Part shown: one piece after another, positions 23,752 through 63,774 of the stretch
How the letters are laid out: every line of letters starts with the position of its first letter
Numbering within the stretch: position 1 is the stretch's first letter
DNA from: Patescibacteria group bacterium UBA2773
GTDB lineage: Bacteria; Patescibacteriota; Minisyncoccia; Moranbacterales; DUUL01
Direction: 5' to 3'
Assembly: GCA_002352465.1 (NCBI GenBank)
Contig: DEIN01000017.1
Span: 64,777-128,776, forward strand
DNA length: 64,000 nt
Made by a program: the position numbers and the translations under genes
Notes under the pieces: model-generated
What the model was told of the DNA's origin: nothing
Database searches by the model: none
The model's input: the letters and a program-made list of their open reading frames with translations, nothing else

Positions 23752-24059
23752 CTTATTCTTCGGTTTTCGCGGGACTGGTTTAAATACTCTTTTGATAAAT
23801 TTAATTTATTGATTAATTCTTTTGAGGGATTATTTTTAATCACCCTTTTGATGTTGCTAATATAGCAATATTCTTTATTTTTAGCAAGGCTAGAAAAATA
23901 AATTCTGAATTTTGAATTTAAAATTTCGATCCAATTTTGAATGACTTCATTTTTTAAATTCATAAGCGAAGCTTATGTAATTAAAAACTAAATAATTATT
24001 ATATTAAAAATTCATTTAAAATTTAAAATTGATTTTTCTTCAAAAGAAGAAAAACTTTG

Positions 24060-24654
24060 TGGAGGTGATGGGAATTGAACCCATGTCCAGTGTCAAAATT
24101 TTAAAATCGTCTACAGATATGTTCCATCTGTTTTTGAGAATAAATCTCAGAAGTTCAATCGCGTTGAGATGGACAAAAAAAGCGAGAGAACTTTTCTTTT
24201 GTGTGATTTGATTAATTTGCCAAAAGAAAACAAACTAACTACGTTCTAATGTTGACACCGATAAGGAATTGCAAGCAATTCCAGAGACTTATTAGAAATC
24301 AGTCAATCGATGGGCCATAGGTTAAAATTAAGCTATGGCAGCAGCAAAGTTAGGTGTGAAAGCAGATGCTAACGCACTTTTTGCTTTATTATATAAGTTT
24401 GCACTTATAAGGTTTCGGGATTGGCTTTAAATGTTCTTTTTACTACAATCGAAAATTTTTGATTAAATTTTCTTCAAATTTTTTTACATTAATTTTGGTT
24501 AGTGCTTCAAAAATTATTTAGAAAATTTATTCTAAAAATTTTCAATTTCGAAAACAAAATAACACTTAAAGCCAATCCCTGTATATTTTTAACAAGATAT
24601 ACAGCTTGATCTGCAAATTTCAAAATACTTAACCTGTCGAAGCCTGGCACCCCC
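24060..24654 (-). ncRNA. ssrA: tmRNA (SsrA), unusually long at ~595 nt
   Basis: On the minus strand the 5' end GGGGGUGCCAGGCUUCGACAGG matches the tmRNA consensus GGGGxUGxxxxGGxUUCGACxGG. The 3' end is a T-arm AUGGG-UUCAAUU-CCCAU followed by CACCUCC-A. Acceptor GGGGGUG/CACCUCC pairs with the G3:U wobble that specifies alanylation. The terminal CCA is not fully encoded. The gene lies immediately downstream of smpB on the same strand. A candidate tag frame is ...GCU GCU GCC AUA GCU UAA. Confidence 0.7.
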
Positions 24655-24827: not shown

Positions 24828-25304
24828 TTAACGTCTTTCCTTATAGGCTCTTTCAATCTTGACCTTGTCTTCACGATTTTGAATCGATTGACGTTTGTCG
24901 TGCTTTTTCTTTCCCTTAGCTAAGGCAAATGAAAGCTTAATTAGGCTTTTTTTATTATACATTGAAACAGGTACTAATGTCAAGCCTTCAGTTCGAACTT
25001 TTCCTAGTAATTTTTTGATTTCACTTTTTTTGACTAACAATTTTCGCGGTCTGGTCGGGTTGTAGCCTTCGATAATTCCAGCTTGCTTGTAGGGATTGAT
25101 GTGAGCGTTGGTGAGGTATAATTCACTTCTGTTGAAAGTGACAAAAGCACCTTTGAGAGAGACGTGACCTGATTTGACTGATTTGACTTCGTAGCCTTTT
25201 AACACTAAACCGGCCTCGAAGGTTTCGAGGAGTTGGTAGTCAAAGTGAGCTCGTTTGTTGACAGCTAGTGATTTCATTGTGTTGACGGCTTGTCTATTTG
25301 ACAC
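24828..25304 (-). CDS. smpB: SsrA-binding protein
   Basis: The product is 158 aa, KRAHFDYQLLETFEAGLVLKGYEVKSVKSGHVSLKGAFV... Confidence 0.9.
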   Translation of the reverse strand: MSNRQAVNTMKSLAVNKRAHFDYQLLETFEAGLVLKGYEVKSVKSGHVSLKGAFVTFNRSELYLTNAHINPYKQAGIIEGYNPTRPRKLLVKKSEIKKLLGKVRTEGLTLVPVSMYNKKSLIKLSFALAKGKKKHDKRQSIQNREDKVKIERAYKERR

Positions 25305-41596: not shown

Positions 41597-42253
41597 ATGA
41601 AAAAAGAACTTTTTTGGGGAGATTGTTATCATATTTTTAATAGGGGTGTAGAAAAAAGAAAGGTTTTTTGTGATAAATATGATTACAAAAGATTTATTGA
41701 CAGTATGAAAGAATTCAACAACCACGAAGTTGGATCTTTGCGAGATAGATTAGATTCAAAATTTTCCACTGGTCCAACCAGTGCACTGGTTCAACCAGTG
41801 GAAGAAGAAAAGCTGGTTGAAATAGTAGCTTATTGCTTGAATGCTAATCATTATCATTTAATTTTAAAAGAAGTTTCTGAAGATGGTATTGCAAAATTTA
41901 TTCAAAAAATAGCAACAGGTTATACTCGATATTTTAATGAAAAGTATAAAAGAACAGGTGGTTTATTTCAAGGTCGGTATAAAAGAGTCGAAGTGGAATC
42001 GAACCCGCAATTGCTTTATTTGTCGGCTTACGTTAATGGAAATCATTACATTCATAAAATTAAAGAACTTGAGAGTTGGGAGTTTTCAAGTTTGCCAGAA
42101 TATTTGAAAAATAAAAAAAATGGATTTTGTTTTAAGAACGATATTTTAGGTCAATTTAATAATAGTGGAGAAGATTATTTAAAATTTTGCAAGAAAAATT
42201 GTGATGACATAAAAGAGAAAAGAGCTTTCTCTAAATTTTTGTTAGAAGAATAA
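41597..42253 (+). mobile_element. REP-associated tyrosine transposase (RAYT, IS200/IS605-like Y1 HUH transposase)
   Basis: The product is 218 aa with the HUH motif NHYHLIL, then GGLFQGRYKRV...LLYLSAYV, which matches the G-LWQ-RY / catalytic Tyr region of RAYTs. REP palindromes lie upstream, inside and downstream of the gene. Confidence 0.7.
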
Positions 42254-53032: not shown

Positions 53033-56000
53033 ATGAATAAATTAAAATACACAATCTATTTTTTGATTTTTGGAATAGCAACATTGACAGCTAATCAAAC
53101 TCAAGCTGTTTACCTCGTTGCTGGGCGAAAAAAGTTTCGGTTTGGATTATTCTTGATTTTTGCTGTTTTCTTTTTTGGTCTAGCTATAGCCTCGCCGACT
53201 TTTGCTGCTACTTGCAACGATCAAGCGGATGGAAATTGGAACTCGGCGGCGACTTGGGATTGTGGGATTGTTCCGGATGCCGATGATGATGTGACGATTG
53301 ATTCGCATACGGTGACGATGACGGCCGATTCGCTTTCCAATACTGTCACGATTTCTGGTGGGACTTTATCTTCTGGCAATTATAAAATTATTACTAAGGA
53401 TTTTGTGCAAACGGGAGGGACGGTTTCGATGGGGTCGGGAGCGATGAAAGTGGCGGGGGATTTCACTAGGATGGGAGGGATTTTCACGGCGGGGACGAGT
53501 GTGGTTTCGTTGGTGGGAGTGGATCAAACCATTGACGTGACAGGAGCACCGACAACATTTTATAAACTTTATAAACTTACTAATTCGGCGGATACTTTGA
53601 CTATCACCGCTGGGAATGAATTGATGATTGCGTCAGGTGGGGTGATGCGGTTTTGGGGAAAACCAGAATCAAAAACTTTATCCATTGTTTCTTCCAGTCC
53701 TGGAACTTCCTACACTATTACTCGAATGGGAACCGCTGAACTAGAATACACCGATTGGTCGGATGCGACTTGGTCTGCTTCTCAAACAGTGGCGGCTTCT
53801 AGTTTGGGAACTGGAAATACTAATTTGACCGTGACAAAAGAATTTATTTCGACTATCAGAGCAACGGGTGGAGATTATTCCTCTTTGTCTTCTTGGGAAT
53901 CAGCCAATCAAACTGATTTAACGGCGACGACTACCAAAGTTTTTTCTCACGGCGGAATTACTGGCACCATCGCTGACACCGACACAATCACTGGTTCAAC
54001 CAGTGGAGCGACCGCTAATGTTGTCCACGCCACCACAACTCAAATACTTCTTGAATCAATTTCTGGTACTTTCCAATCTGGCGAGCAAGTTCAAGTGGAT
54101 GCCTCTAACCTCGTCACGATTTCGGACGCCGGCTTCGGCGCCATTTCCACGGCGGAATGCTACAACGATTGGCCGAGCGGGTTGGTGGAAGATTATGTGT
54201 CAATTTCTGGTTGGACAACGGGTAAAAATAATTATGTAAAAGTTTATACACCTCAAGGTCAACGTCACAACGGTGTATTAAAAAATGAAAGTGGAAATTA
54301 TACAGGTTTTACAATTAAACAAACAAATTATTCTGGTAAGACCTCGGTTTTTGGTAACGAACAAAATTATACGATTATTGATGGGATAATTATAGTTGCT
54401 GCTGAAAGTCAGGTTTCCTACGGGATTTCGAGTGAAGTCGCATATTCCACTGTGAGTAATAATATTGTTTACAGGGAGGTTGGTACAGGACAGCAAGGAA
54501 TAAGATTTTATACGACAGCAAGTGTCGGTTCGTATATTTTTAATAATATTGTTTATGGATCTGACAGTAATAATTGGGAAATTTGTTTTATGGGTTGCAA
54601 GGGAGAGGTATATAATAACGTGGCTTATGAGTGTGATTATGGGTTTGTTAATTATTCTACTTACGATAATGAATTGACAAATAATAGTGCATTCAATAAT
54701 AATATTTATGATTTTGGTGGTTCTGTTAATGCAATTATTTCAAATAGTATATCAAGTGATGGCACAGCTGATGATTTTGGGGGTAGCGATAATATTGTAG
54801 ATGCGACTTTGGCTGATCTAGATTTTGTCTCGACTACGTCTGGATTAGAGGATTTGCACATTGAAACAGATTCGGTGGCCCGAAATGAGGGATTGGATTT
54901 GTCGGTTGATCCTGATTATCCATTAGTTTCTGATATTGACGGAGATTCAATGCTGGGGTTTGCGGAGTGGTCGATTGGGGCAGATCAATATTCTGATTTT
55001 GACTATTCTTCCCTTAGTCCGACTGATGGAAATAAATCGGTGGCGGTGGGAGCGGATTTTGTGATGAATTTCTCAGAAAGTGTGACAGCCCAAGCGGGAA
55101 AATATATTTATATTAAACGAGAAGATGATGACTCAACGGTTTTTGCGATTGAAGCTGACGACACCACCCAAGTTTCGGGTTCGGGCACGGTGCAAATCAC
55201 TGTCAATCCAGCCGAGAATTTGGAAGCGGGAACAAAATATTACGTCACAATGGACAGGAGTTGTTTTATAAATGTTTATTTGCACCAAAACGCGGTGATT
55301 TCCGACAGCATCGAGTGGAATTTTCAGACTGCGTCTTTTGATTGGCATGATAAGTCTTGGACTAAACGCAAAAAAATCACCATTGACGAGGGGGAAGTCT
55401 CGGGTGGGCAAACTGATTTTCCGGTTTTGCTTTCCGTGACGGACACTGATTTCAAAGACCACGCTCAAACTGATGGCAATGATTTTTTCTTGACTGACAC
55501 CGCTGGCAACCAACTTCCGCACGAAATCGAATCCTACACCGCCTCAACTGGTGAGTTGGTTTTGTGGTTTAAAGCCTCCTATCTTTATGACACCTCTGAC
55601 ACTCATTTCTATGTATATTATGGCAATTCGTTGGCAGATGATCAGCAAGACGCGGAGAATGTTTGGGATGAGAATTACAAAATGGTTCAGCATATGGATG
55701 ATACTACAACGTCAACTATCACTGATTCAACGGCTAATGATAATGATGGAACAAAATATGCAGTTAATGAACCAGCGGCGGGAACAGGATTATTGGCTGA
55801 TGGCTTAGTTGGAAAGGCACAAGACTTTGATGTGGTTGACGATGTGGTTAATTGTGGCTCTGGAGCATCTATTGATGATATTTTTGCTGGTGGTGGAACT
55901 GTTCAATTCATAATGAAGCCACAAGGTTGGGGTGAGTTTGAATATGGAAGAGTCTTAGATAAGGGTCCCGATGCTTCTAATTTAACATCTACACAATTTT

Positions 56001-57778
56001 ATATTTCCTCTAATGGTGATCTCCTCTTTACTAAATCTTTTTCAACTACAAACGGAGTTTGGGGTCCTGGTTCTGACACAATTTCATTAAATAATATATA
56101 TTTTTGTAGTTTGGTATATGATAGTGATTCTGTCACAAATAATCCTATTATGTATTTAAATGGATCAGATGCTACAGCACTAGCAGCTGCTACGCCATCT
56201 GGATCTGCAACATCAGATGCTGGAAATGATTTATTTTTAGGTGCAAGGGGCACGGATAGAGAATTTGATGGGCTTATAGATGAAGTTAAGTTTTTATCAA
56301 CAGAGTTATCAGCAGATTGGATTTCAACAGAATACAACAACCAATCCGCGCCGGGGGATTTCTTGAGTTTGAGTGCGGAGGAATCAAGTGGAGCAGAGTC
56401 TTCGGCCGGGCAAGACGGGGGAGTGAGTAGCGACGGTTTGGTCGGTTACTGGTCTTTTGACGGCTCCGACATCTCTGGCACGACGGTTTATGATCGAAGT
56501 GGCCAAGGCAACAACGGAACTTTGACCAATGGCCCCACTCCTGCTCTAGGTAAACTTGGTCAAGGAATGAGTTTTGATGATACTAATGACTATGTAAATA
56601 TTGGAAATATTTCTGCTTTAAAACCTGCTTTTCCTTTTAGTGTTTCTTTTTGGTCGAAAAGAACAATAGGTAGTGGAGTCGTTTTCAGTACTGGACCAGC
56701 TAATATGGGTGCGTCTGGTTATAGAGGTTGGATGATTTATGATGGAGGAGATTTTAGGGGCGGTGATGGATCAGGTGTCGGAATTGGAGACAGATTTGGG
56801 CGGAATGTACTTGTTAATCCTGGCATTGATGGCATTTGGCATTATAAAACGATTGTAGTGACTAGCTCTACTAATATTAATTTATATTTAGATGGAGAAT
56901 TAAATAATGGTGCATACACAAATGGAACTGCTTCTAGTTTGGGATATGGATCGGACAGGGTTCTTATTGGTGCAAGTGATGATGGGGGAACTCCAGAGAA
57001 TTTTTTTGGTGGCTTTGTTGATGAAGTTCGGGTTTATAATCGAGCTTTGTCGGCTAATGAAATTTCCGGGCTTTATAATTCCGGGCAAGCGAAATTCCAA
57101 ACTTCTGATAACGAAAATAATCTTTCTGATGGTTTGGTAGGCTATTGGCCATTTGACGGCTCCGACATCTCTGGCACTAACGCCTATGACCGTTCGGGAA
57201 ATGGCAACAACGGCACTCTCACCAACGACCCCATCCCCGCCCTAGGAAAATTAGGTCAAGCGTTGAGTTTTGACGGGATGGACGATTATGTCTTAGTGCC
57301 AAACAGTTCTGAAATTCATCCAGTAAATGAATTGACAATAGGGGCTTGGGTTAACCAAAATAATAATGCTACTAGTCCATATCAAAGAATAACTGAAAAA
57401 AATGATGATTTAACGTGTTGGATTAACGATAATAATGGTGATGTGTGTGTTAGGCTCAGTGCTAATAAAAATGGTGAAGCGTCTCAAACTTGCTTTGAGG
57501 CAGATATAAGTCAAAATAGGTGGTATCATTTATTTTTTACTTATAAAAGTGATGAATCTGTCGTTAGTCTTTACATTGATGGAGAATTATTTGATACTAG
57601 TAGCTATTACTATGGACTTTTAACGACTAATACTAATGCTTTGTATATTGGTAATAAGAGTAGTATTGATAGATCTTGGATGGGACAAATTGACGAAGTG
57701 CGGATTTATGATCGGGCTTTGTCGGCTGTTGAAATATCCCAATTATACAACATGGGTCGAGTGGAAATAACGAACTAA
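53033..57778 (+). CDS. Giant (1581 aa) secreted protein with a beta-helix-like N-terminal region, an AECYNDWPSGL module and C-terminal LamG-like modules
   Basis: The N-terminal leader contains VAGRKKFRF. The FISTIRATGGDY...AECYNDWPSGL module is shared with the 60043 gene. The C-terminus has two LamG modules (SDGLVGYWSFDGSDISGT.VYDRSG.GNNGTLTN...FFGGFVDEVRVYNRALSANEI). Confidence 0.7.
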   Translation: MNKLKYTIYFLIFGIATLTANQTQAVYLVAGRKKFRFGLFLIFAVFFFGLAIASPTFAATCNDQADGNWNSAATWDCGIVPDADDDVTIDSHTVTMTADSLSNTVTISGGTLSSGNYKIITKDFVQTGGTVSMGSGAMKVAGDFTRMGGIFTAGTSVVSLVGVDQTIDVTGAPTTFYKLYKLTNSADTLTITAGNELMIASGGVMRFWGKPESKTLSIVSSSPGTSYTITRMGTAELEYTDWSDATWSASQTVAASSLGTGNTNLTVTKEFISTIRATGGDYSSLSSWESANQTDLTATTTKVFSHGGITGTIADTDTITGSTSGATANVVHATTTQILLESISGTFQSGEQVQVDASNLVTISDAGFGAISTAECYNDWPSGLVEDYVSISGWTTGKNNYVKVYTPQGQRHNGVLKNESGNYTGFTIKQTNYSGKTSVFGNEQNYTIIDGIIIVAAESQVSYGISSEVAYSTVSNNIVYREVGTGQQGIRFYTTASVGSYIFNNIVYGSDSNNWEICFMGCKGEVYNNVAYECDYGFVNYSTYDNELTNNSAFNNNIYDFGGSVNAIISNSISSDGTADDFGGSDNIVDATLADLDFVSTTSGLEDLHIETDSVARNEGLDLSVDPDYPLVSDIDGDSMLGFAEWSIGADQYSDFDYSSLSPTDGNKSVAVGADFVMNFSESVTAQAGKYIYIKREDDDSTVFAIEADDTTQVSGSGTVQITVNPAENLEAGTKYYVTMDRSCFINVYLHQNAVISDSIEWNFQTASFDWHDKSWTKRKKITIDEGEVSGGQTDFPVLLSVTDTDFKDHAQTDGNDFFLTDTAGNQLPHEIESYTASTGELVLWFKASYLYDTSDTHFYVYYGNSLADDQQDAENVWDENYKMVQHMDDTTTSTITDSTANDNDGTKYAVNEPAAGTGLLADGLVGKAQDFDVVDDVVNCGSGASIDDIFAGGGTVQFIMKPQGWGEFEYGRVLDKGPDASNLTSTQFYISSNGDLLFTKSFSTTNGVWGPGSDTISLNNIYFCSLVYDSDSVTNNPIMYLNGSDATALAAATPSGSATSDAGNDLFLGARGTDREFDGLIDEVKFLSTELSADWISTEYNNQSAPGDFLSLSAEESSGAESSAGQDGGVSSDGLVGYWSFDGSDISGTTVYDRSGQGNNGTLTNGPTPALGKLGQGMSFDDTNDYVNIGNISALKPAFPFSVSFWSKRTIGSGVVFSTGPANMGASGYRGWMIYDGGDFRGGDGSGVGIGDRFGRNVLVNPGIDGIWHYKTIVVTSSTNINLYLDGELNNGAYTNGTASSLGYGSDRVLIGASDDGGTPENFFGGFVDEVRVYNRALSANEISGLYNSGQAKFQTSDNENNLSDGLVGYWPFDGSDISGTNAYDRSGNGNNGTLTNDPIPALGKLGQALSFDGMDDYVLVPNSSEIHPVNELTIGAWVNQNNNATSPYQRITEKNDDLTCWINDNNGDVCVRLSANKNGEASQTCFEADISQNRWYHLFFTYKSDESVVSLYIDGELFDTSSYYYGLLTTNTNALYIGNKSSIDRSWMGQIDEVRIYDRALSAVEISQLYNMGRVEITN

Positions 57779-57932: not shown

Positions 57933-58529
57933 ATGGAAGAGAAAAAAAAGATTATTGTAGAGAACTCTATAGAGACGGTTAAAAAAAGAAAATATAAAAT
58001 TGATTATCGAAACTTGAGTTTTTTGATTGGAGGATTGATTTTATTGATTGGGATTATTGGAGGAGGGATTTGGTTTTTTAAATCAAAAAAAGGAGAAGTC
58101 AAAGTTTATGATGCTTTGGTGATGTTGAAAGATCAAAAATCTGCTAATTCCGAAGAAGATGCTAAAAATTCAGCCAAAAAAGGAGATGTGATTTTGATCA
58201 GAGAAACTGGTCAAGAATGGTCAAAGACGGAAAAAATCAGTTATTTGATTTTAAAAATTAAATTGAATGAAAAACAAGCGCAAAAAATTGTTCAGGCTAA
58301 AACCAAAAAACTTTCGAAAGATGAAGCCAAGGAAAAAGGACTGGTGGATGATGAGCGATTGAAAACTATGGAAAAAGAAGAGCTTGAGCAGACCTTAAAA
58401 GAGGATATTTTGTTTCGGGAATATCGAGTAAAGATTGAAAAGTTGGAATTTGATCCGATGAAAGTCCGGAATGAGCAACCGTTTGAAGATGAGGAGTTTG
58501 GGTGGAGTCTTGTTGAGAAAAAAGATTAA
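57933..58529 (+). CDS. Hypothetical single-pass membrane protein with a charged C-terminal domain
   Basis: The product is 198 aa. It has an N-terminal TM (LSFLIGGLILLIGIIGGGIWFF) followed by K/E-rich sequence. Confidence 0.45.
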   Translation: MEEKKKIIVENSIETVKKRKYKIDYRNLSFLIGGLILLIGIIGGGIWFFKSKKGEVKVYDALVMLKDQKSANSEEDAKNSAKKGDVILIRETGQEWSKTEKISYLILKIKLNEKQAQKIVQAKTKKLSKDEAKEKGLVDDERLKTMEKEELEQTLKEDILFREYRVKIEKLEFDPMKVRNEQPFEDEEFGWSLVEKKD

Positions 58530-60042: not shown

Positions 60043-63000
60043 GTGTTTATTATGAAAAAAATAAAAATTAGTTTAATATTTTTTATTTATTTTATTGCTT
60101 TAGCTAGTGCTAGGGGTTTTTTGGGGGTTTACTCCGTTGCTGGGCGAAAAAAGTTTCGATTTTTAAAACCTTTATTAGTTAGCTTCATTTTCTTTTTTGG
60201 GCTAGCTATTACCTCGCCGGCTTATGGGGCGACGGAATTTATTTCAACCATCAGGTCTAGCGGTGGGGACTATACAACTCTTTCTGGTTGGGAATCAGCC
60301 AATCAAACGGATTTGACCGCTTCAACTACCAAAGTTTTTTCGCACGGTGGAATCACTGGAGCGATTGCTGACACCGACACCGTCACGGGAAAAAATTCTG
60401 GAGCAACGGCTTCGGTGGTTCATACTACTACCGACCAAATTCTTCTAGAAACAATCTCGGGAACTTTTCAATCGGGAGAGCAAATTTATGTCACGCTTGA
60501 TACTATTTACGTGACAATTTCAGATGCAGGAGATTCTGCTATTGCCGTCGCCGAATGCTACAACGATTGGCCAAGCGGGTTGGATGACTCGGTCAATATT
60601 GACGGTTGGACAACGGGAGTGAATAATTATGTGAAAATTTACACTCCAGAATCAGAAAGACATAATGGTAAAATTTTCAATGGCACAGACTATACTGGAT
60701 TTGCTTTAAAAAGTACTCAAGTTGGAAATGTTATTGATTTATCTGCTAATTATTCAAGGATTGATGGTTTGATAATTGATGCAGCTCATGTAGATGTGGA
60801 AGATGGAATTAGCGAAGAAGGAGCATTACTTGATCATTTTATTTCAAATAATATTTTATACAGATCTGTTGGGAATAATGATAATGGAATTTACACTTAT
60901 TCTACGAGTTCTATTAATAGAACAATTGTTTGGAATAATATAGTTATTTGCGGTGATTCTAATACATGGAGTTCTGGTATAAACACTAATCATGGAGATA
61001 TACAAAATAATACTGTTTATAATTGCACTAATGGAATTACTCAATCTATAGATTATCCTAATAAATTAAATAATAATATTTCTGTTGATAATTCTTCCGC
61101 TGATTATTTATTAAGCGCTGGTAGTTGGCAAGTGGATTCTAGTAATAACATCTCCTCTGACACCACTGCTCCTGAAGCGAATTCTCAAACCAGTGTAGCG
61201 TTAGCGGATTTGGATTTTGTGAGTACCACTTTAGGTTCGGAGGATTTTCATATTGGGGCGGATTCAGTGGCGTTGAATGCAGGGGTAGATTTATCTTCAA
61301 CTTTTACAGATGACATTGATGGGCAGACGCGGGATATGGATGGGGAGGGTTTTGATATTGGGGCAGATGAGGGACAGCAGGATTTTATTTCTAAAATTAG
61401 AGTTAATACCGAGTCAGATTGGGATTTTGATAAACTTTCAACTTGGGAAGATGCGATTGAGTCAGATCTGACCGCCACCACTTCCAAAATATATACCGTT
61501 TCTGACACGGGAACTTTTGACGACACCACTGACCAAGAGCAAGCCGTGACGTTCACCGGTGGGGGAACTGGAACTTTGCTCGATATCAATTCTTCGGGGG
61601 TGGCGTATATCACCGGTGTTTCTGGCACAGTGCAAGCGGGAATCGTCACGGTTGACACCAATTCCCACACTTTTACCATCTCCGACACCGGCGCCAAAGT
61701 CGGCCGAGCCGTCGCCGAATGCTACAACGATTGGCCAAGTGGGCTGGAGGATAATTTTTGGATTAGTGGTTGGACAACTAGCGCAACGAATTATGTAAAA
61801 GTTTATACATTAGCAAGTGAAAGACACGATGGTTGGACTTGGACGGATGACACTCAAACTGTTTATTCTGGTTTTGCAGTTGTGAATAATTCAATTTATT
61901 GTACAATTCGTGCTAGCAATTATTATACACAAATCGAAGGAGTTATTGTTAATCAAAACAATAAAGGTGGTGGTACTTATAGCGGTTTGCGATTAGGCGA
62001 TTATGTTAAAGCAGATTCTATAATTGCTTTTAATTCACCTAAAGCTGGGGTAATGACTGTTCCAGGTACATGGACAAACCCTTTATATTTATCAAATATT
62101 CTTGTTTATGATAATAATTATGGAATTTATAATGGTTATGGGGTTAGACTTTATAATGTGACAGCAGTGAATAATACCAGTTATGGAATTTACAAAAATA
62201 ATCTTTTAACTACGTATTTAAAAAATGTTTTAGCTTATGATAATGGTATCAAAGATTTTTATAATTCAGGTAGTGGTGATTTCGATGTTTTAAATTGTGC
62301 CTCTTCTGATGATACAGCTGATGATTTTGGTGGCTCTGGAAATCGGATTGATCAAGAATTTTCTTTTGTAGATGAAGATAATGATGATTTTCATTTGGCT
62401 TTGGATGACACGGGGGCGAGGAATTTTGGAACTGATTTGAGTTTGGATTCGACTTTTCCTATTTCAACAGATATTGATGGGGAAGTGCGGGATGTGGATG
62501 GAGAAGGATGGGATATTGGGGCGGATGAGAGTGGGCAGGATTTTGTTTCGAAAATTCGAGTGAATACCGAGTCGGATTGGGATTTTGATAAACTTTCAAC
62601 TTGGGAAGATGCAATTGAATCGGACTTGACGGCGACGACTTCTAAAATCTATACGGTTTCTGATACCGGAACCTACAGCGACACTACCGACCAATCTCAA
62701 GCCGTGACATTCACCGGCGGGGGAACTGGAACTTTGCTGGATATCAATTCTTCGGGTGTAGCCTATATCACCGGAGTTTCTGGCACAGTCACGGCTGGAA
62801 CCGTCACAGTCACTTCTTCCTCCCACACTTTCACCATCTCCGACACCGGCGCCAAAGTCGGCCGAGCCGTCGCCGAATGCTACAACGATTGGCCAAGTGG
62901 GTTGGATGATAGGGTTGATATTAATGGTTGGATAACGGGGGTGAATAATTATGTTAAAGTTACTTCACCATCTTCTGAGAGACACACAGGAGTTGCTGGA

Positions 63001-63774
63001 ACCGGATTTATAATAAAAAATGATACGAATTCATATGTTGTAGGTTTATATAATTACTACTCTGTTGTTGAATGGTTGGAGGTTACCGGAGTCGGAGCGG
63101 ATACAACTTATCACAATGGTGTTGGAATGAGTCGATACTCTACCGCTAGAAATTTGATTGTTCATGATATAGTAACAAACGATGGAGGTGATCTTGTGAC
63201 AGGTATATCAATGGGTTCTAATGGAGGAAGTTATATATATAACAATATTATTTATAATATTAAAAATTATTCTGCAACCGTCACAAAGAATCCGAACGGA
63301 ATCAAATACATAGGAACCTCTCCATTTATTTATAATAACACTGTCTACGGTATCGATGCTCCTAATAATCCTGGAAAAGGTACTGGTATTTTTGCAGGTC
63401 TGGGATTTGTTAAAAATAATATTGTAATTAACAGCGGATATGTGGATTTTAATATTATGGAAAGTGCAAATCATACTAATAATATATCTTCTGATGATAC
63501 GGCGCTGGGGTCGAATTCTCAAACCAGTGTAGCGTTAGCGGATTTGGATTTTGTGAGTACCACGGCGGGAACGGAAGATTTGCATATTGGTGAAGACTCA
63601 GTCGCGCGAAATGTGGGGACGGATTTGTCTTCGGTTTTTACACTGGACATTGATGGTTATGAGCGGGGAGTGGGATTGACTAGTTGGGATATTGGAGCGG
63701 ATGAGGTGAATGAATATACTACTACTATTAAGGGAGGGGTTAATATTAAGGGAGGGGTTAAGATTACTAATTAA
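60043..63774 (+). CDS. Giant (1243 aa) secreted protein with three tandem ~386-aa beta-helix-like modules, each containing AECYNDWPSGLDD
   Basis: The leader has VAGRKKFRF. Modules 2 and 3 are near-identical at the DNA level (61378-61755 vs 62536-62913). Each module ends with DIDG..RD.DGEG.DIGADE. The C-terminus is IKGGVNIKGGVKITN. Confidence 0.7.
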   Translation: MFIMKKIKISLIFFIYFIALASARGFLGVYSVAGRKKFRFLKPLLVSFIFFFGLAITSPAYGATEFISTIRSSGGDYTTLSGWESANQTDLTASTTKVFSHGGITGAIADTDTVTGKNSGATASVVHTTTDQILLETISGTFQSGEQIYVTLDTIYVTISDAGDSAIAVAECYNDWPSGLDDSVNIDGWTTGVNNYVKIYTPESERHNGKIFNGTDYTGFALKSTQVGNVIDLSANYSRIDGLIIDAAHVDVEDGISEEGALLDHFISNNILYRSVGNNDNGIYTYSTSSINRTIVWNNIVICGDSNTWSSGINTNHGDIQNNTVYNCTNGITQSIDYPNKLNNNISVDNSSADYLLSAGSWQVDSSNNISSDTTAPEANSQTSVALADLDFVSTTLGSEDFHIGADSVALNAGVDLSSTFTDDIDGQTRDMDGEGFDIGADEGQQDFISKIRVNTESDWDFDKLSTWEDAIESDLTATTSKIYTVSDTGTFDDTTDQEQAVTFTGGGTGTLLDINSSGVAYITGVSGTVQAGIVTVDTNSHTFTISDTGAKVGRAVAECYNDWPSGLEDNFWISGWTTSATNYVKVYTLASERHDGWTWTDDTQTVYSGFAVVNNSIYCTIRASNYYTQIEGVIVNQNNKGGGTYSGLRLGDYVKADSIIAFNSPKAGVMTVPGTWTNPLYLSNILVYDNNYGIYNGYGVRLYNVTAVNNTSYGIYKNNLLTTYLKNVLAYDNGIKDFYNSGSGDFDVLNCASSDDTADDFGGSGNRIDQEFSFVDEDNDDFHLALDDTGARNFGTDLSLDSTFPISTDIDGEVRDVDGEGWDIGADESGQDFVSKIRVNTESDWDFDKLSTWEDAIESDLTATTSKIYTVSDTGTYSDTTDQSQAVTFTGGGTGTLLDINSSGVAYITGVSGTVTAGTVTVTSSSHTFTISDTGAKVGRAVAECYNDWPSGLDDRVDINGWITGVNNYVKVTSPSSERHTGVAGTGFIIKNDTNSYVVGLYNYYSVVEWLEVTGVGADTTYHNGVGMSRYSTARNLIVHDIVTNDGGDLVTGISMGSNGGSYIYNNIIYNIKNYSATVTKNPNGIKYIGTSPFIYNNTVYGIDAPNNPGKGTGIFAGLGFVKNNIVINSGYVDFNIMESANHTNNISSDDTALGSNSQTSVALADLDFVSTTAGTEDLHIGEDSVARNVGTDLSSVFTLDIDGYERGVGLTSWDIGADEVNEYTTTIKGGVNIKGGVKITN

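What the first reader, a model, noticed from the sequence alone, without database searches (positions are those of the whole stretch)
53033..53225. Two giant surface-protein genes share a conserved bipartite leader, with 23 identical nucleotides around VAGRKKFRF
The 53033 gene encodes ...AVYLVAGRKKFRFGLFLIFAVFFFGLAIASPTFAA. The 60043 gene encodes ...GVYSVAGRKKFRFLKPLLVSFIFFFGLAITSPAYGA. The DNA gttgctgggcgaaaaaagtttcg is identical in both (53109-53131 and 60135-60157). Each leader has a first hydrophobic stretch, the basic VAGRKKFRF motif and a second hydrophobic stretch ending SP.(F/Y).A. This may be a lineage-specific secretion or sorting signal, or a conserved 5' cassette that allows recombinational swapping of surface-protein bodies.
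Basis: seen in the sequence. Interest (0 to 1): 0.6.

Follow-up and report, generated by a model that had tools for sequence, protein, structure and literature searches.

The report
Signal peptide plus inserted second signal cassette
Two large secreted-protein genes of a candidate-phyla (Patescibacteria-type) bacterium carry an ordinary export signal followed by a conserved 33-34-codon insert that encodes a second export-signal-like segment, and whose two ends also pair as an RNA helix in nearly all other copies and in one of the two genes here; this is a lineage-specific module that has not been described.

Summary

The leader is a family, not a quirk of two paralogues. I found at least 24 copies, and all named sources are Patescibacteria. 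They sit in front of at least five unrelated passenger types.

Anatomy:
- **Unit 1** is an ordinary Sec signal peptide. Neighbouring paralogues use it alone.
- **Unit 2** is a 99-105 nt in-frame insert exactly at the signal-peptidase site. It reads VYPVAGR(R/K)KF, then about 20 hydrophobic residues, then SPAYG|A.
- The mature N-terminus after unit 2 is the same as in paralogues without it.

Unexpectedly, the two conserved peptide motifs are also fixed at synonymous sites. They form a 12-bp long-range helix bracketing unit 2, with one covarying pair. Gene B keeps this helix and gene A has lost it.

No Pfam, NCBIfam or Rfam family matches, including ESPR, YSIRK and Tat.

Most likely this is an extended (tandem) Sec leader cut after SPAYG. 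The role of the helix is unknown. A "lineage-specific sorting signal" is supported. A "recombination cassette" is only weakly supported.

The parts
53033..57778 (+). Gene A, 1581 aa. It holds the leader, a ~210-aa N-terminal domain, one EFISTIR beta-helix-type module, Big_5, DUF2341 and three LamG domains.
   Evidence: ORF list; Pfam; comparison with gene B; identical to called protein P0122.
53033..53107 (+). Gene A unit 1: MNKLKYTIYFLIFGIATLTANQTQA. This is a complete Sec-type signal peptide: n +2, h 15 aa, c-region TQA.
   Evidence: Homologous unit 1 is used alone as the signal peptide in paralogues elsewhere.
53108..53206 (+). Gene A unit 2 (99 nt): VYLVAGRKKFRFGLFLIFAVFFFGLAIASPTFA. It is a second signal-peptide-like cassette, and the predicted mature protein starts at A59 (53207).
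   Evidence: Family alignments. The helix arms (53113-53125 and 53194-53207) are degenerate here: CTC replaces CCC, and TTT GCT replaces TAT GGG. The family helix is not predicted for this copy.
53117..53139 (+). Exact 23-mer shared with gene B. It covers the second half of the 5' helix arm and the RKKF codons.
   Evidence: 2 matches, 0 expected.
60052..63774 (+). Gene B, 1240 aa from ATG 60052. It holds the leader followed directly by three tandem ~385-aa EFISTIR modules, each ending in a choice-of-anchor-Q-like motif.
   Evidence: (P0121).
60052..60126 (+). Gene B unit 1: MKKIKISLIFFIYFIALASARGFLG. It has a signal-peptide-like n and h region, but its c-region (FLG) is degenerate.
60127..60228 (+). 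Gene B unit 2 (102 nt): VYSVAGRKKFRFLKPLLVSFIFFFGLAITSPAYG. The predicted mature protein starts at ATEF (60229).
   Evidence: Homologues with simple signal peptides or no leader start at (M)ATEF.
60132..60144 (+). Gene B 5' arm of the long-range helix: C TCC GTT GCT GGG.
   Evidence: Alignment columns 18-30. The helix is predicted in this copy's own MFE structure.
60216..60229 (+). Gene B 3' arm of the long-range helix: G CCG GCT TAT GGG G.
   Evidence: Alignment columns 105-118.
60136..60158 (+). Exact 23-mer shared with gene A.
57933..58529 (+). Context only: a small protein with an N-terminal TM segment. Its homologues lie 1-2 genes upstream of EFISTIR-type leader genes in three other loci. 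Its function is unknown, and membership of the system is not shown.
   Evidence: tblastn: L002 67%, L020 44%, L001 34% identity. No Pfam hit.

Best explanation
The 'bipartite leader' is two things in series.

**Unit 1** (about 25 aa) is the ordinary Sec-type signal peptide of this lineage's secreted beta-helix and LamG proteins.

**Unit 2** is a discrete in-frame cassette of 99-105 nt sitting exactly at the signal-peptidase junction. It encodes:
- the motif VYPVAG;
- a basic cluster, R(R/K)K;
- about 20 hydrophobic residues;
- a cleavage region, SPAYG|A.

Unit 2 is therefore a second signal peptide without a start codon.

**Most likely mechanism (inferred).** The basic cluster and H2 of unit 2 engage Sec in the usual N-in/C-out orientation. 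Signal peptidase I then cuts after SPAYG (after SPTFA in gene A). This releases a passenger with the same N-terminus (ATEF..., AEYYV...) as paralogues that lack unit 2. Unit 1 then acts as an N-terminal hydrophobic extension, as in other extended signal peptides, and may change targeting, timing or transient membrane retention.

**Nucleic-acid layer.** The two ends of unit 2 (GTT TAC CCC GTT GCC GGC and TCG CCG GCA TAT GGG G) form a conserved 12-bp helix, most likely in the mRNA. The peptide motifs VYPVAG and SPAYGA are therefore partly images of a nucleic-acid constraint. What the helix does is not known.

**Shown:** the anatomy, the family, presence/absence among paralogues, and the conserved, partly covarying pairing potential of the two arms.

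**Inferred:** the export route, the cleavage site, that the helix actually forms (and in RNA rather than DNA), and the functional effect.
For: **Family**
- A four-leader profile gave 16 hits at E<1e-3 in 1.84 billion representatives, all with the same layout.
- Further copies came from degenerate DNA scans and look-ups.
- In total there are 20 DNA copies and at least 24 overall.

**Layout**
- N1 carries +2 to +5 in most of the 21 copies (the few lower values are copies whose start is uncertain or cut). H1 is mostly 12-17 aa. The loop mostly carries +3 to +5.
- H2 is about 20 aa. The whole leader is 58-72 aa.
- c1 obeys the -3/-1 rule in 19 of 21 copies. c2 is A-Y-G|A, or a variant with small residues.

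**Unit 1 alone is a functional-looking signal peptide in neighbouring paralogues**
- L008 gene 1 reads ...GLAQNSQA|AEYYVSPTDS.
- P0134 reads ...GLAKSSEA[34 aa]AEYYVSPTDS, with about 93% identity over the first 70 mature residues.
- The empty site is GCG^GCG. The filled site is GCG[GTT...GGG]GCG.
- In six clusters only one paralogue in 2-4 carries unit 2.

**Mature N-terminus**
- EFISTIR-family relatives with short signal peptides read ...A|ATEF.
- Leaderless relatives start MATEF.

**Constraint**
- Leader identity is within a point of, or above, passenger identity in all 6 pairs of EFISTIR-type homologues.
- H2 has pN/pS 0.41. Its hydrophobicity is not explained by base composition.

**Helix**
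- Synonymous codons are fixed: TAC 13/13, CCC 10/11, GGG 11/11, TCG 8/10, CCG 10/11. Neighbouring synonymous sites vary.
- RNAalifold and 5 of 6 single-sequence folds give the same helix.
- 92% of cells are paired, against 39-44% when the partners are slid.
- Pair 27:108 is C-G x10, U-A x7, U.G x3 and never unpaired.

**Passengers.** They are extracellular-type folds: beta-helix, Pel9A-like, chondroitinase B-like, LamG and choice-of-anchor Q.
Against: - No experiment and no trained signal-peptide predictor was available. The cleavage site and the Sec route rest on rules and on homology.
- The topology is frustrated. N1 and the loop between H1 and H2 are both strongly basic, so H1 and H2 both prefer N-in/C-out.
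- c1 remains a good signal-peptidase site in 19 of 21 copies. That would not be required if only c2 is cut.
- Unit 2 was never found alone behind its own start codon. One possible exception is P0014, if it starts at an internal Met.
- H2 is long for a cleaved signal peptide, so it might be an uncleaved anchor.
- Covariation rests essentially on one base pair, possibly one evolutionary event. The shuffle control for overall pairing is not significant, because the columns are nearly invariant.
- Gene A in the window has lost the helix while keeping the coding features. The helix is therefore not essential to keep the ORF.
Confidence: 0.55

Rival explanations
1. **Selfish or mobile in-frame hairpin element**, comparable to Rickettsia palindromic elements. 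Unit 2 would be a ~102-nt palindrome-ended element inserting at the signal-peptide/mature junction of this gene family. It would be tolerated because it brings its own n-h-c signal, so host signal peptidase removes it and restores the original mature N-terminus (a 'self-cleaning' insertion). The conserved arms would serve the element's own propagation or excision, not the host protein.
For: - Clean presence/absence between close paralogues, at exactly the same junction.
- Nucleotide-level conservation of both ends, with complementarity and a compensatory pair.
- The codons flanking the insert match in 8 of 12 copies (permutation p=0.012).
- Unit 2 precedes unrelated passengers.
- IS200-like Y1 transposase ORFs lie near leader genes in the window (41597-42253), L001 and L032.
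- In-frame palindromic elements have a precedent in Rickettsia (PMC10969869).
Against: - Copy number is very low: 1-2 per locus, and only 3 true hits to a strict form of the motif in one genome of each of 185,579 species.
- The insert is always in the same frame, orientation and position. It was never seen in an intergenic region or inside other genes.
- Two copies in one MAG are only 72% identical in unit 2, but 83% in unit 1, so no recent transposition.
- The empty site holds both flanking codons, so there is no target-site duplication.
- H2 is under amino-acid-level purifying selection.
- Frequent G.U pairs suggest sense-strand RNA rather than DNA.
- The same pattern could arise from repeated precise loss of an ancestral unit 2.
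Confidence: 0.2
2. **Anchoring add-on.** H2 of unit 2 is not cleaved and acts as an N-terminal membrane anchor. Adding unit 2 would turn one paralogue per cluster from a released protein into a membrane-tethered one, for instance the base of a surface assembly.
For: - H2 is about 20 residues and strongly hydrophobic, which is typical of anchors.
- Only one paralogue per cluster carries unit 2.
- The family shares a C-terminal strand-like tail, TTPPAAPxGLxVN, that could mediate assembly.
Against: - SPAYG|A is a well-conserved cleavage-type c-region, with a helix breaker and small residues at -3 and -1.
- There is no stalk between H2 and the folded domain. The domain begins at the very residue where leaderless homologues begin.
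Confidence: 0.12
3. **Recombination cassette**. The conserved leader DNA would be a homology block allowing surface-protein bodies to be swapped between loci or strains.
For: - In L016, two tandem genes are 87/87 nt identical from mid-H1 onward, but differ upstream.
- Very similar unit-1 signal peptides precede unrelated passengers within one MAG.
- In gene A, a ~210-aa domain sits between the leader and the module that follows the leader directly in gene B.
Against: - The exact identity in the window is only 24 nt, and unit 1 of A and B is 54% identical. That is too short and too divergent for efficient homologous recombination.
- Conservation across distant genomes is concentrated in two complementary arms. 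That pattern points to pairing, not to a homology tract.
- No breakpoints were mapped.
Confidence: 0.08
4. **Twin-arginine (Tat) signal.** AGRRKFLL resembles the S/T-R-R-x-F-L-K motif, so unit 2 would route folded passengers through Tat.
For: About half the copies read G-R-R-K-F/L-L-L.
Against: - RR is present in only 11 of 21 copies. The others read RK (8), QR (1) and RF (1), and both window genes read RKK.
- H2 is very hydrophobic (mean Kyte-Doolittle 1.3-2.7), and the c-region has no basic residue.
- No Tat-signal family was reported in Pfam or NCBIfam.
- The passengers are 450-1600-aa proteins.
Confidence: 0.03
5. **Nothing special.** The similarity would simply reflect two recent paralogues, or a mis-called start codon that adds a spurious upstream hydrophobic stretch.
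For: A and B are paralogous in part of their bodies, and those bodies hold exact runs of 20-21 nt.
Against: - At least 24 copies in different genomes keep both units, in frame and behind a Met, with conserved features in unit 1.
- No in-frame start codon precedes unit 2.
- Leader identity is about equal to or above passenger identity.
Confidence: 0.02

Closest known systems
[quoted passage not shown]
   Same: - Long leader (over 50 aa) with an N1-H1-N2-H2-C layout.
- Found on large beta-helical surface proteins.
- A lineage-restricted conserved part sits next to a canonical signal peptide.
- The proposed role is modulation of Sec export, not export itself (PMC8151025; PMC2805444).
   Different: - In ESPR the conserved, lineage-specific part is the N-terminal extension, which cannot act as a signal on its own.
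- Here the N-terminal part is the ordinary signal peptide, used alone in paralogues. The conserved part is the insert downstream of it.
- No sequence match was found to PF13018.
- The hosts are Patescibacteria, not Proteobacteria, and no autotransporter barrel is present.
- No nucleotide-level helix is known for ESPR.
YSIRK-G/S and KxYKxGKxW signal peptides of Gram-positive surface proteins
   Same: A conserved short motif lies in or next to the basic n-region of a long signal peptide. They occur on large surface proteins of bacteria that, like Patescibacteria as generally described, lack an outer membrane. They are thought to direct a sub-route or site of secretion (my own knowledge).
   Different: - The motif differs, and no profile match was reported.
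- Those signals have a single hydrophobic core, whereas this leader has two.
- They are not discrete inserts showing presence/absence among paralogues.
Rickettsia palindromic elements (RPEs) and other in-frame MITEs
   Same: A short (~100-150 bp) element capable of forming a hairpin. It is found in frame inside protein-coding genes, encodes a conserved peptide, and is present or absent between homologues (PMC10969869).
   Different: - RPEs are multi-copy and scattered over unrelated genes and intergenic DNA.
- Unit 2 is low-copy and always at one functional position, the signal-peptidase junction.
- It is under amino-acid selection and would be removed from the mature protein.
- Its pairing includes many G.U pairs.
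Bipartite presequences (thylakoid-lumen proteins, mitochondrial intermembrane-space proteins)
   Same: Two targeting units in series. The second is a basic-plus-hydrophobic signal-peptide-like segment, cut by a signal-peptidase-type enzyme (my own knowledge).
   Different: Those presequences serve two successive membranes or compartments. No second membrane is known for these bacteria. Here the first unit is itself a hydrophobic signal peptide.

Membership tests
Sec-type (signal peptidase I) signal peptide | Basic n-region, hydrophobic h-region, and a polar c-region with small residues at -3 and -1 | tested here: met
   Both units have n, h and c regions in 21 copies. c1 fits the rule in 19 of 21. 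c2 is A-Y-G|A or TFA, ANA, ASG or VYG. The test is rule-based only; no trained predictor was available.
Sec-type (signal peptidase I) signal peptide | Actual cleavage and Sec-dependent export | not testable with these tools
   Inferred from homologues. Simple-signal-peptide relatives read ...A|ATEF, and leaderless relatives start MATEF.
ESPR (PF13018) | Match to the PF13018 profile | tested here: not met
   Pfam scans of the whole proteins and of isolated leaders, up to E=10, did not report PF13018.
ESPR (PF13018) | An N-terminal extension that cannot act as a signal by itself, upstream of a canonical signal peptide | tested here: not met
   The N-terminal unit is a complete signal peptide and is the only signal in neighbouring paralogues.
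ESPR (PF13018) | N1-H1-N2-H2-C layout longer than 50 aa | tested here: met
   58-72 aa with two hydrophobic stretches and two basic stretches.
ESPR (PF13018) | Carried by type V secretion proteins of diderm bacteria | tested here: not met
   All named sources are Patescibacteria MAGs. No autotransporter or TPS domain appears in Pfam.
Tat signal peptide | Nearly invariant twin arginine in S/T-R-R-x-F-L-K | tested here: not met
   RR in 11 of 21 copies; RK in 8, QR in 1, RF in 1. The window genes read RKK.
Tat signal peptide | Weakly hydrophobic h-region; profile match (TAT_signal models) | tested here: not met
   H2 has mean Kyte-Doolittle 1.3-2.7 and is rich in F, L and I. No Tat family was reported.
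Tat signal peptide | tatA and tatC present in the genome | not tested
   Only fragments of the carrier genomes were available.
YSIRK-G/S or KxYKxGKxW signal peptides | Presence of the eponymous motif, or a profile match | tested here: not met
   Neither motif is in the sequences, and no profile match was reported.
Type IV prepilin (class III) signal | Short basic leader, G at -1, F/M at +1, E at +5, then a hydrophobic helix | tested here: not met
   There is a conserved G followed by F or L inside H2, but no E at +5. No N_methyl match was found on the leaders. A true pilin-type N-terminus does occur on another homologue, P0080.
In-frame palindromic mobile element (RPE/MITE-like) | Inverted-repeat ends able to pair | tested here: met
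   A 12-bp helix between the ends. 92% of cells are paired, against about 40% when slid. One compensatory pair.
In-frame palindromic mobile element (RPE/MITE-like) | Presence/absence at homologous sites | tested here: met
   L008 gene 1 against P0134 and L008 gene 2. One in 2-4 paralogues carries it in six clusters.
In-frame palindromic mobile element (RPE/MITE-like) | Many dispersed copies, in unrelated genes and intergenic DNA | tested here: not met
   Only 1-2 copies per locus, and always the same position, frame and orientation. Whole genomes were not available, so this is a limited test.
In-frame palindromic mobile element (RPE/MITE-like) | Target-site duplication | tested here: inconclusive
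   Flanking Ala codons match in 8 of 12 copies (p=0.012). However, the empty site already holds both codons.
Any Rfam RNA family | Covariance-model match over unit 2 | tested here: not met
   No match in the window at gathering score, nor in five loci at E<=1.

The most novel reading that the evidence does not exclude
Unit 2 is a dual-coded cassette of about 102 nt. Its ends are kept for a nucleic-acid helix, and its reading frame is kept as a self-sufficient signal peptide.

It can be gained or lost precisely at signal-peptidase junctions. Two versions are possible:
- **A 'self-cleaning' selfish insertion.** Host signal peptidase removes it from the protein, in the way splicing removes an intein or intron.
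- **A hairpin-assisted switch.** It would toggle one paralogue per cluster between two export fates.
Probability: 0.2. Interest if true: 0.85.

Novelty: new variant of a known kind. Interest (0 to 1): 0.6.

Why it matters
Patescibacteria are ultrasmall, mostly uncultured episymbionts. Their large surface proteins are thought to mediate host contact, yet how those proteins are sorted is largely unknown.

**What a new leader class offers**
- A conserved add-on to the signal peptide, with a recognisable motif (AVYPVAGR(R/K)KF ... SPAYGA), marks a specific subset of their exported proteins.
- It gives annotators a new leader class to model.

**Overlapping protein and RNA constraints**
- The two peptide 'motifs' coincide with the arms of a conserved helix. 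This is a clean example of protein and RNA constraints overlapping.
- It is also a warning that conserved signal-peptide motifs can be nucleic-acid features.

**If the mobile or switch reading is right**
- It would be a new way for an insertion to live inside a gene without harming it.

Tried and rejected
1. **Programmed -1 frameshift.** I tested the in-frame A_AAA_AAG heptamer (CGA AAA AAG). It is not conserved (P0007 CGA CGA AAG, P0001 CGA AAG AAA), and it lies inside the loop of the helix. Rejected.
2. **Internal start codon for unit 2.** None is in frame.
3. **Tat signal.** RR is not invariant.
4. **Membership of ESPR, YSIRK, KxYKxGKxW, prepilin or SipW-type signals.** No such family was reported in Pfam or NCBIfam, even at E=10.
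5. **Leader-only searches through the word index.** They found nothing the first time, and only two short ORFs with a 15-leader profile. The exhaustive HMM search was needed.
6. **Viral contigs.** Three hits, all the same out-of-frame chance sequence. Chance hits in genome and metagenome scans (L005-L007, L010, L012, L013, L015, L017, L019, L022, L023, L026, L027) were set aside after translation. L023 lies inside a membrane-transporter-like ORF in another frame.
7. **A dedicated partner gene next to all leader genes.** None was found. The small TM protein goes only with the EFISTIR-type loci.
8. **Translational bypass of unit 2.** The flanking codons match in 8 of 12 copies. But the helix starts 5 nt after the would-be take-off codon, no stop codon follows it, and the ORF through unit 2 is under selection. 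I consider it unlikely, but it is not excluded.
9. **Literature.** No paper mentions YPVAGR, or extended signal peptides in Patescibacteria. Searches on Tat in this group were uninformative.
10. **Structure prediction.** I did not run it. It would not discriminate between the models.
Full report
**1. Check of the observation**

- For gene B the mechanical ORF begins at GTG 60043. The family-consistent start is ATG 60052 (MKKIKIS...), which is also the start of the publicly called protein P0121.
- The 23-mer GTTGCTGGGCGAAAAAAGTTTCG occurs exactly twice in 64 kb, at 53117-53139 and 60136-60158. None was expected in shuffles.
- The genes are partial paralogues. A aa 270-652 aligns with B aa 65-443 at 54% identity.
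- Gene B consists of three tandem copies of that module. Gene A has a different ~210-aa domain between the leader and the module.
- Exact DNA runs of 20-21 nt also occur in the bodies.
- At identical residues the same codon is used in 22/30 leader positions, against 103/205 body positions (Fisher p=0.02).

Inside this window alone, the DNA identity is thus only mildly unusual.

**2. The leader is a family**

- Searching with the first 449 residues of B showed two more proteins with the same two-part leader. These are P0001 and P0007, the latter named Candidatus Moranbacteria.
- A profile of the four leaders, run against 1.84 billion representative proteins, returned 16 hits at E<1e-3. These were the two window genes, P0001, P0007 and 12 new proteins, all with the same layout.
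- Fully degenerate DNA patterns for A-V/I-Y-P-V/I/M-A-G-R-R/K-K found true copies only in Patescibacteria MAGs and in metagenome contigs. The MAGs are Candidatus Gottesmanbacteria and two 'Patescibacteria group' assemblies. The true loci are L008, L009, L011, L014, L016 (two tandem copies), L018, L020, L021, L024 and L025.
- The remaining hits were chance matches without the surrounding features, and no true copy was found in viral contigs.
- A local HMM of 21 leaders finds only the two copies in the window.
- The consensus is ..K.K..(h1)..a....AVYPVAGRrKf...Gflf..fiff.gl.f..sPAYGAt.
- No Pfam, NCBIfam or Rfam family covers it. No paper in the library mentions it.

**3. Anatomy at protein level**

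Across 21 copies:

- The N-terminus carries +2 to +5 in most copies. The few lower values are copies whose start is uncertain or cut.
- H1 is mostly 12-17 strongly hydrophobic residues.
- A polar c-region follows, with small residues at -3 and -1 in 19 of 21 copies. Gene B (FLG) is one exception.
- The stretch between H1 and H2 carries a net charge of mostly +3 to +5.
- H2 is about 20 residues and ends in SPAYG|A. The total length is 58-72 aa.

Each half therefore looks like a Sec signal peptide.

The decisive evidence comes from neighbouring paralogues.

- In L008, gene 1 reads ...FGLAQNSQA|AEYYVSPTDSLAAAVSQLQPGDTL.
- P0134, from the same MAG, reads ...FGLAKSSEA[VYPVAGQRKFLLTGFLFTFFIFFAGLIFASPAYG]AEYYVSPTDSLATAVSQLQPGDTL.
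- At DNA level the empty site is CAG GCG^GCG GAG TAT TAT GTT TCG CCG ACT.
- In L008 gene 2 the filled site is TGG GCG [GTT TAC ... TAT GGG] GCG GAG TAT TAT GTT TCG CCG ACT.
- In six gene clusters only one paralogue in 2-4 has this insert. The others carry unit 1 alone, as '...FGLAKSSQA|A...'.

In the EFISTIR family, relatives with short signal peptides read ...KAFA|ATEF or ...KTAYG|ATEF. Many homologues with no leader start MATEF. So the mature protein most probably begins at the Ala after SPAYG, and unit 2 is a discrete insert of 33-35 codons at the signal-peptidase site.

Unit 2 precedes at least five unrelated passenger types:

- the EFISTIR beta-helix module;
- the N-terminal domain of gene A;
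- LamG proteins starting AITIRP;
- pectate-lyase-like or chondroitinase-B-like beta-helices starting A(T/E/D)YYV;
- a family starting A.NVYYSVGQ.

Leader identity is within a point of, or above, passenger identity in all 6 pairs of EFISTIR-type homologues. That is unusual for signal peptides.

**4. An unexpected nucleic-acid layer**

Tabulating codons over 13 and then 20 independent DNA copies showed fixed synonymous choices at two places. Most copies had been found with patterns or searches blind to third positions.

| Residue | Codon | Count | Background frequency |
|---|---|---|---|
| Val | GTT | 11/11 | 0.37 |
| Tyr | TAC | 13/13 | 0.26 |
| Pro | CCC | 10/11 | 0.16 |
| Ser | TCG | 8/10 | 0.13 |
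| Pro | CCG | 10/11 | 0.25 |
| Gly | GGG | 11/11 | 0.18 |

Other synonymous sites in the same copies vary freely. The second Tyr, for example, is TAT 7 and TAC 4.

The two conserved stretches are complementary. CCCCGU pairs with AUGGGG, and GCCGGC pairs with GCCGGC. Together they give a 12-bp helix with a small internal loop, closing about 74 nt that encode H2.

- RNAalifold predicts this helix from the alignment.
- Five of six single sequences fold into it on their own, including gene B.
- On 20 copies, 92% of cells are paired, against 39-44% when the 3' partners are slid.
- Pair 27:108 links the third position of the Ala codon with the third position of the Pro/Ser codon. It is C-G in 10 copies, U-A in 7 and U.G in 3, and is never unpaired.
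- The observed alternatives (GCC/GCT opposite G, TAT/TAC opposite G) all keep pairing.
- The many G.U pairs favour sense-strand RNA over DNA.
- Synonymous divergence is 0.22 in the 5' arm, against 0.54-0.59 in the basic cluster and interior of unit 2.

Two caveats apply.

- The columns are nearly invariant, so the shuffle control for overall pairing is not significant.
- The U-A copies may represent a single event.

The interior is still under protein-level selection. pN/pS is 0.41, and composition-preserving shuffles reach the observed hydrophobicity in only about 7% of trials per copy.

The motifs VYPVAG and SPAYGA are thus partly mirror images imposed by a helix. In the window, gene B keeps the helix (arms 60132-60144 and 60216-60229, with a U.G pair). 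Gene A has lost it on both sides: CTC replaces CCC, and TTT GCT replaces TAT GGG (arm remnants at 53113-53125 and 53194-53207).

**5. How it most likely works**

Positive-inside reasoning makes both H1 and H2 prefer N-in/C-out. A basic cluster a few residues after c1 would also hamper export started by unit 1. I therefore favour the following sequence.

1. Unit 2 supplies the operative n-h-c signal.
2. Signal peptidase I cuts after SPAYG.
3. Unit 1 remains as a hydrophobic N-terminal extension.

This is the general logic of extended signal peptides such as ESPR, where the extension modulates rather than enables export (PMC8151025).

It is an inference, at confidence about 0.55. Three observations sit uneasily with it:

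- c1 is kept as a good cleavage site in 19 of 21 copies;
- unit 2 was never seen alone behind a start codon;
- H2 is long for a cleaved signal peptide.

The role of the helix is open. It could be an mRNA feature affecting translation or stability of the one paralogue that carries it. It could instead be a structure that promotes precise loss or gain of the cassette.

**6. Rivals**

- **Selfish or mobile in-frame hairpin element (0.2).** Removed from the protein by signal peptidase. It is supported by the clean indel, the conserved arms and the matching flanking codons (8 of 12, p=0.012). IS200-like Y1 transposase ORFs also lie near leader genes in three loci. It is weakened by low copy number, the fixed position, divergence between copies in one MAG (72% in unit 2 against 83% in unit 1) and the absence of a target duplication.
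- **Uncleaved anchor (0.12).**
- **Recombination cassette (0.08).**
- **Tat signal (0.03).** RR is present in only 11 of 21 copies.
- **Mere paralogy or a mis-called start (0.02).**

A -1 frameshift at CGA AAA AAG was tested and rejected.

**7. Comparison with what is known**

At protein level the closest analogues are ESPR and the motif-bearing long signal peptides of Gram-positive surface proteins. Membership fails on profile match, host range and, for ESPR, on which half is canonical.

At DNA level the closest analogue is the in-frame Rickettsia palindromic element (PMC10969869). Those are multi-copy and scattered, whereas this insert is low-copy and confined to one functional junction.

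I rate it a new variant of a known kind: an extended signal peptide with a lineage-specific, dual-coded insert.

**8. Verdict**

- The 'sorting signal' interpretation is supported, in corrected form.
- The 'recombination cassette' idea is only weakly supported.
- Interest is 0.6. The main uncertainty is functional and needs experiments or whole-genome scans that I could not run.

Noticed in passing
L008, L016, L018, L033, L037, L039, L040, L041 (C-termini); window 57758-57778 and 63754-63774: Many proteins of this secreted family end at a true stop codon with ...WDIGAYEY..(D/E)TTPPAAP(T/S)GL(T/S)V(N/K/S). This holds with or without unit 2. The tail looks like the first strand of an FN3 domain cut short. 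Window genes A and B end GRVEITN and GGVKITN. It may be a C-terminal tag or an assembly strand. A choice-of-anchor-Q motif lies just upstream in several.
   Followed up: partly
window 57933-58529 (+): A small protein with an N-terminal TM segment and no Pfam family. Its homologues lie 1-2 genes upstream of EFISTIR-type leader genes in L002 (67% id), L020 (44%) and L001 (34%). In L020 a RhuM gene lies between, as in the window.
   Followed up: partly
window 41597-42253 (+); L001 9544-10215; L032 15649-16224: IS200-like Y1 transposase ORFs sit among the large surface-protein genes in three related loci. The window copy is 42% identical to the one right after P0007. Whether they relate to the hairpin-ended insert is unknown.
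   Followed up: no
L041, L033, L040 (several genes each): Within one genome, unrelated secreted proteins share almost the same unit-1 signal peptide, for example MKSCNSK(F/L)KTVFFLA(M/I)LFF..FGLAKSS(E/Q)A. That is unusually high conservation for signal peptides across non-homologous passengers.
   Followed up: no
L016 (minus strand, two tandem genes): The two leaders are 87/87 nt identical from mid-H1 to the contig end, but differ strongly in the first ~40-60 nt. This sharp mosaic boundary lies inside the leader.
   Followed up: partly
L032 10001-10267 and 10264-13857: In a Moranbacteria contig the leader is a separate 88-aa ORF (P0135). It overlaps the start of a 1197-aa LamG gene in another frame, which suggests a frameshift or assembly error. 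In L035/L036 a leader-only 67-aa ORF (P0130) is followed by a Bro-N gene.
   Followed up: no
P0127 (protein only): One family member has about 38 extra residues between AVYP and PVAGRRKF, including a second RRRFILLAG-like stretch. This looks like a partial internal duplication of unit 2.
   Followed up: no
Proteins P0002-P0120: The EFISTIR/ATEF module occurs with four kinds of N-terminus: none (MATEF..., the majority), a short signal peptide, the tandem leader, and a prepilin-type N-terminus (P0080, PF07963). Some named sources are archaea and Proteobacteria.
   Followed up: no
window 24057-24654 (-): The tmRNA match spans 598 nt against a 374-position model, so it probably carries an insertion. 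It lies beside an smpB-like ORF (24828-25304).
   Followed up: no
window 36000-64000: The block of large surface-protein genes has G+C 0.39-0.43, against about 0.26-0.35 in most of the rest of the window. The cause could be composition (Gly/Thr/Ser/Ala/Asp-rich proteins) or foreign origin.
   Followed up: no
window 53120-53134 and 53170-53184: In gene A the 23-mer region (GCUGGGCGAAAAAAG) is predicted to pair with the second conserved block (CUUUUUUGGUCUAGC). This forms an alternative inner hairpin (z=-2.3), although the family helix is lost in this copy.
   Followed up: partly
L033 4383-4459: The unit-2-bearing gene P0129 ends ...TTAPAAPAGISIK. It is followed 75 nt later by a 159-aa gene with its own signal peptide, an FN3 domain and a dockerin-like domain.
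   Followed up: no
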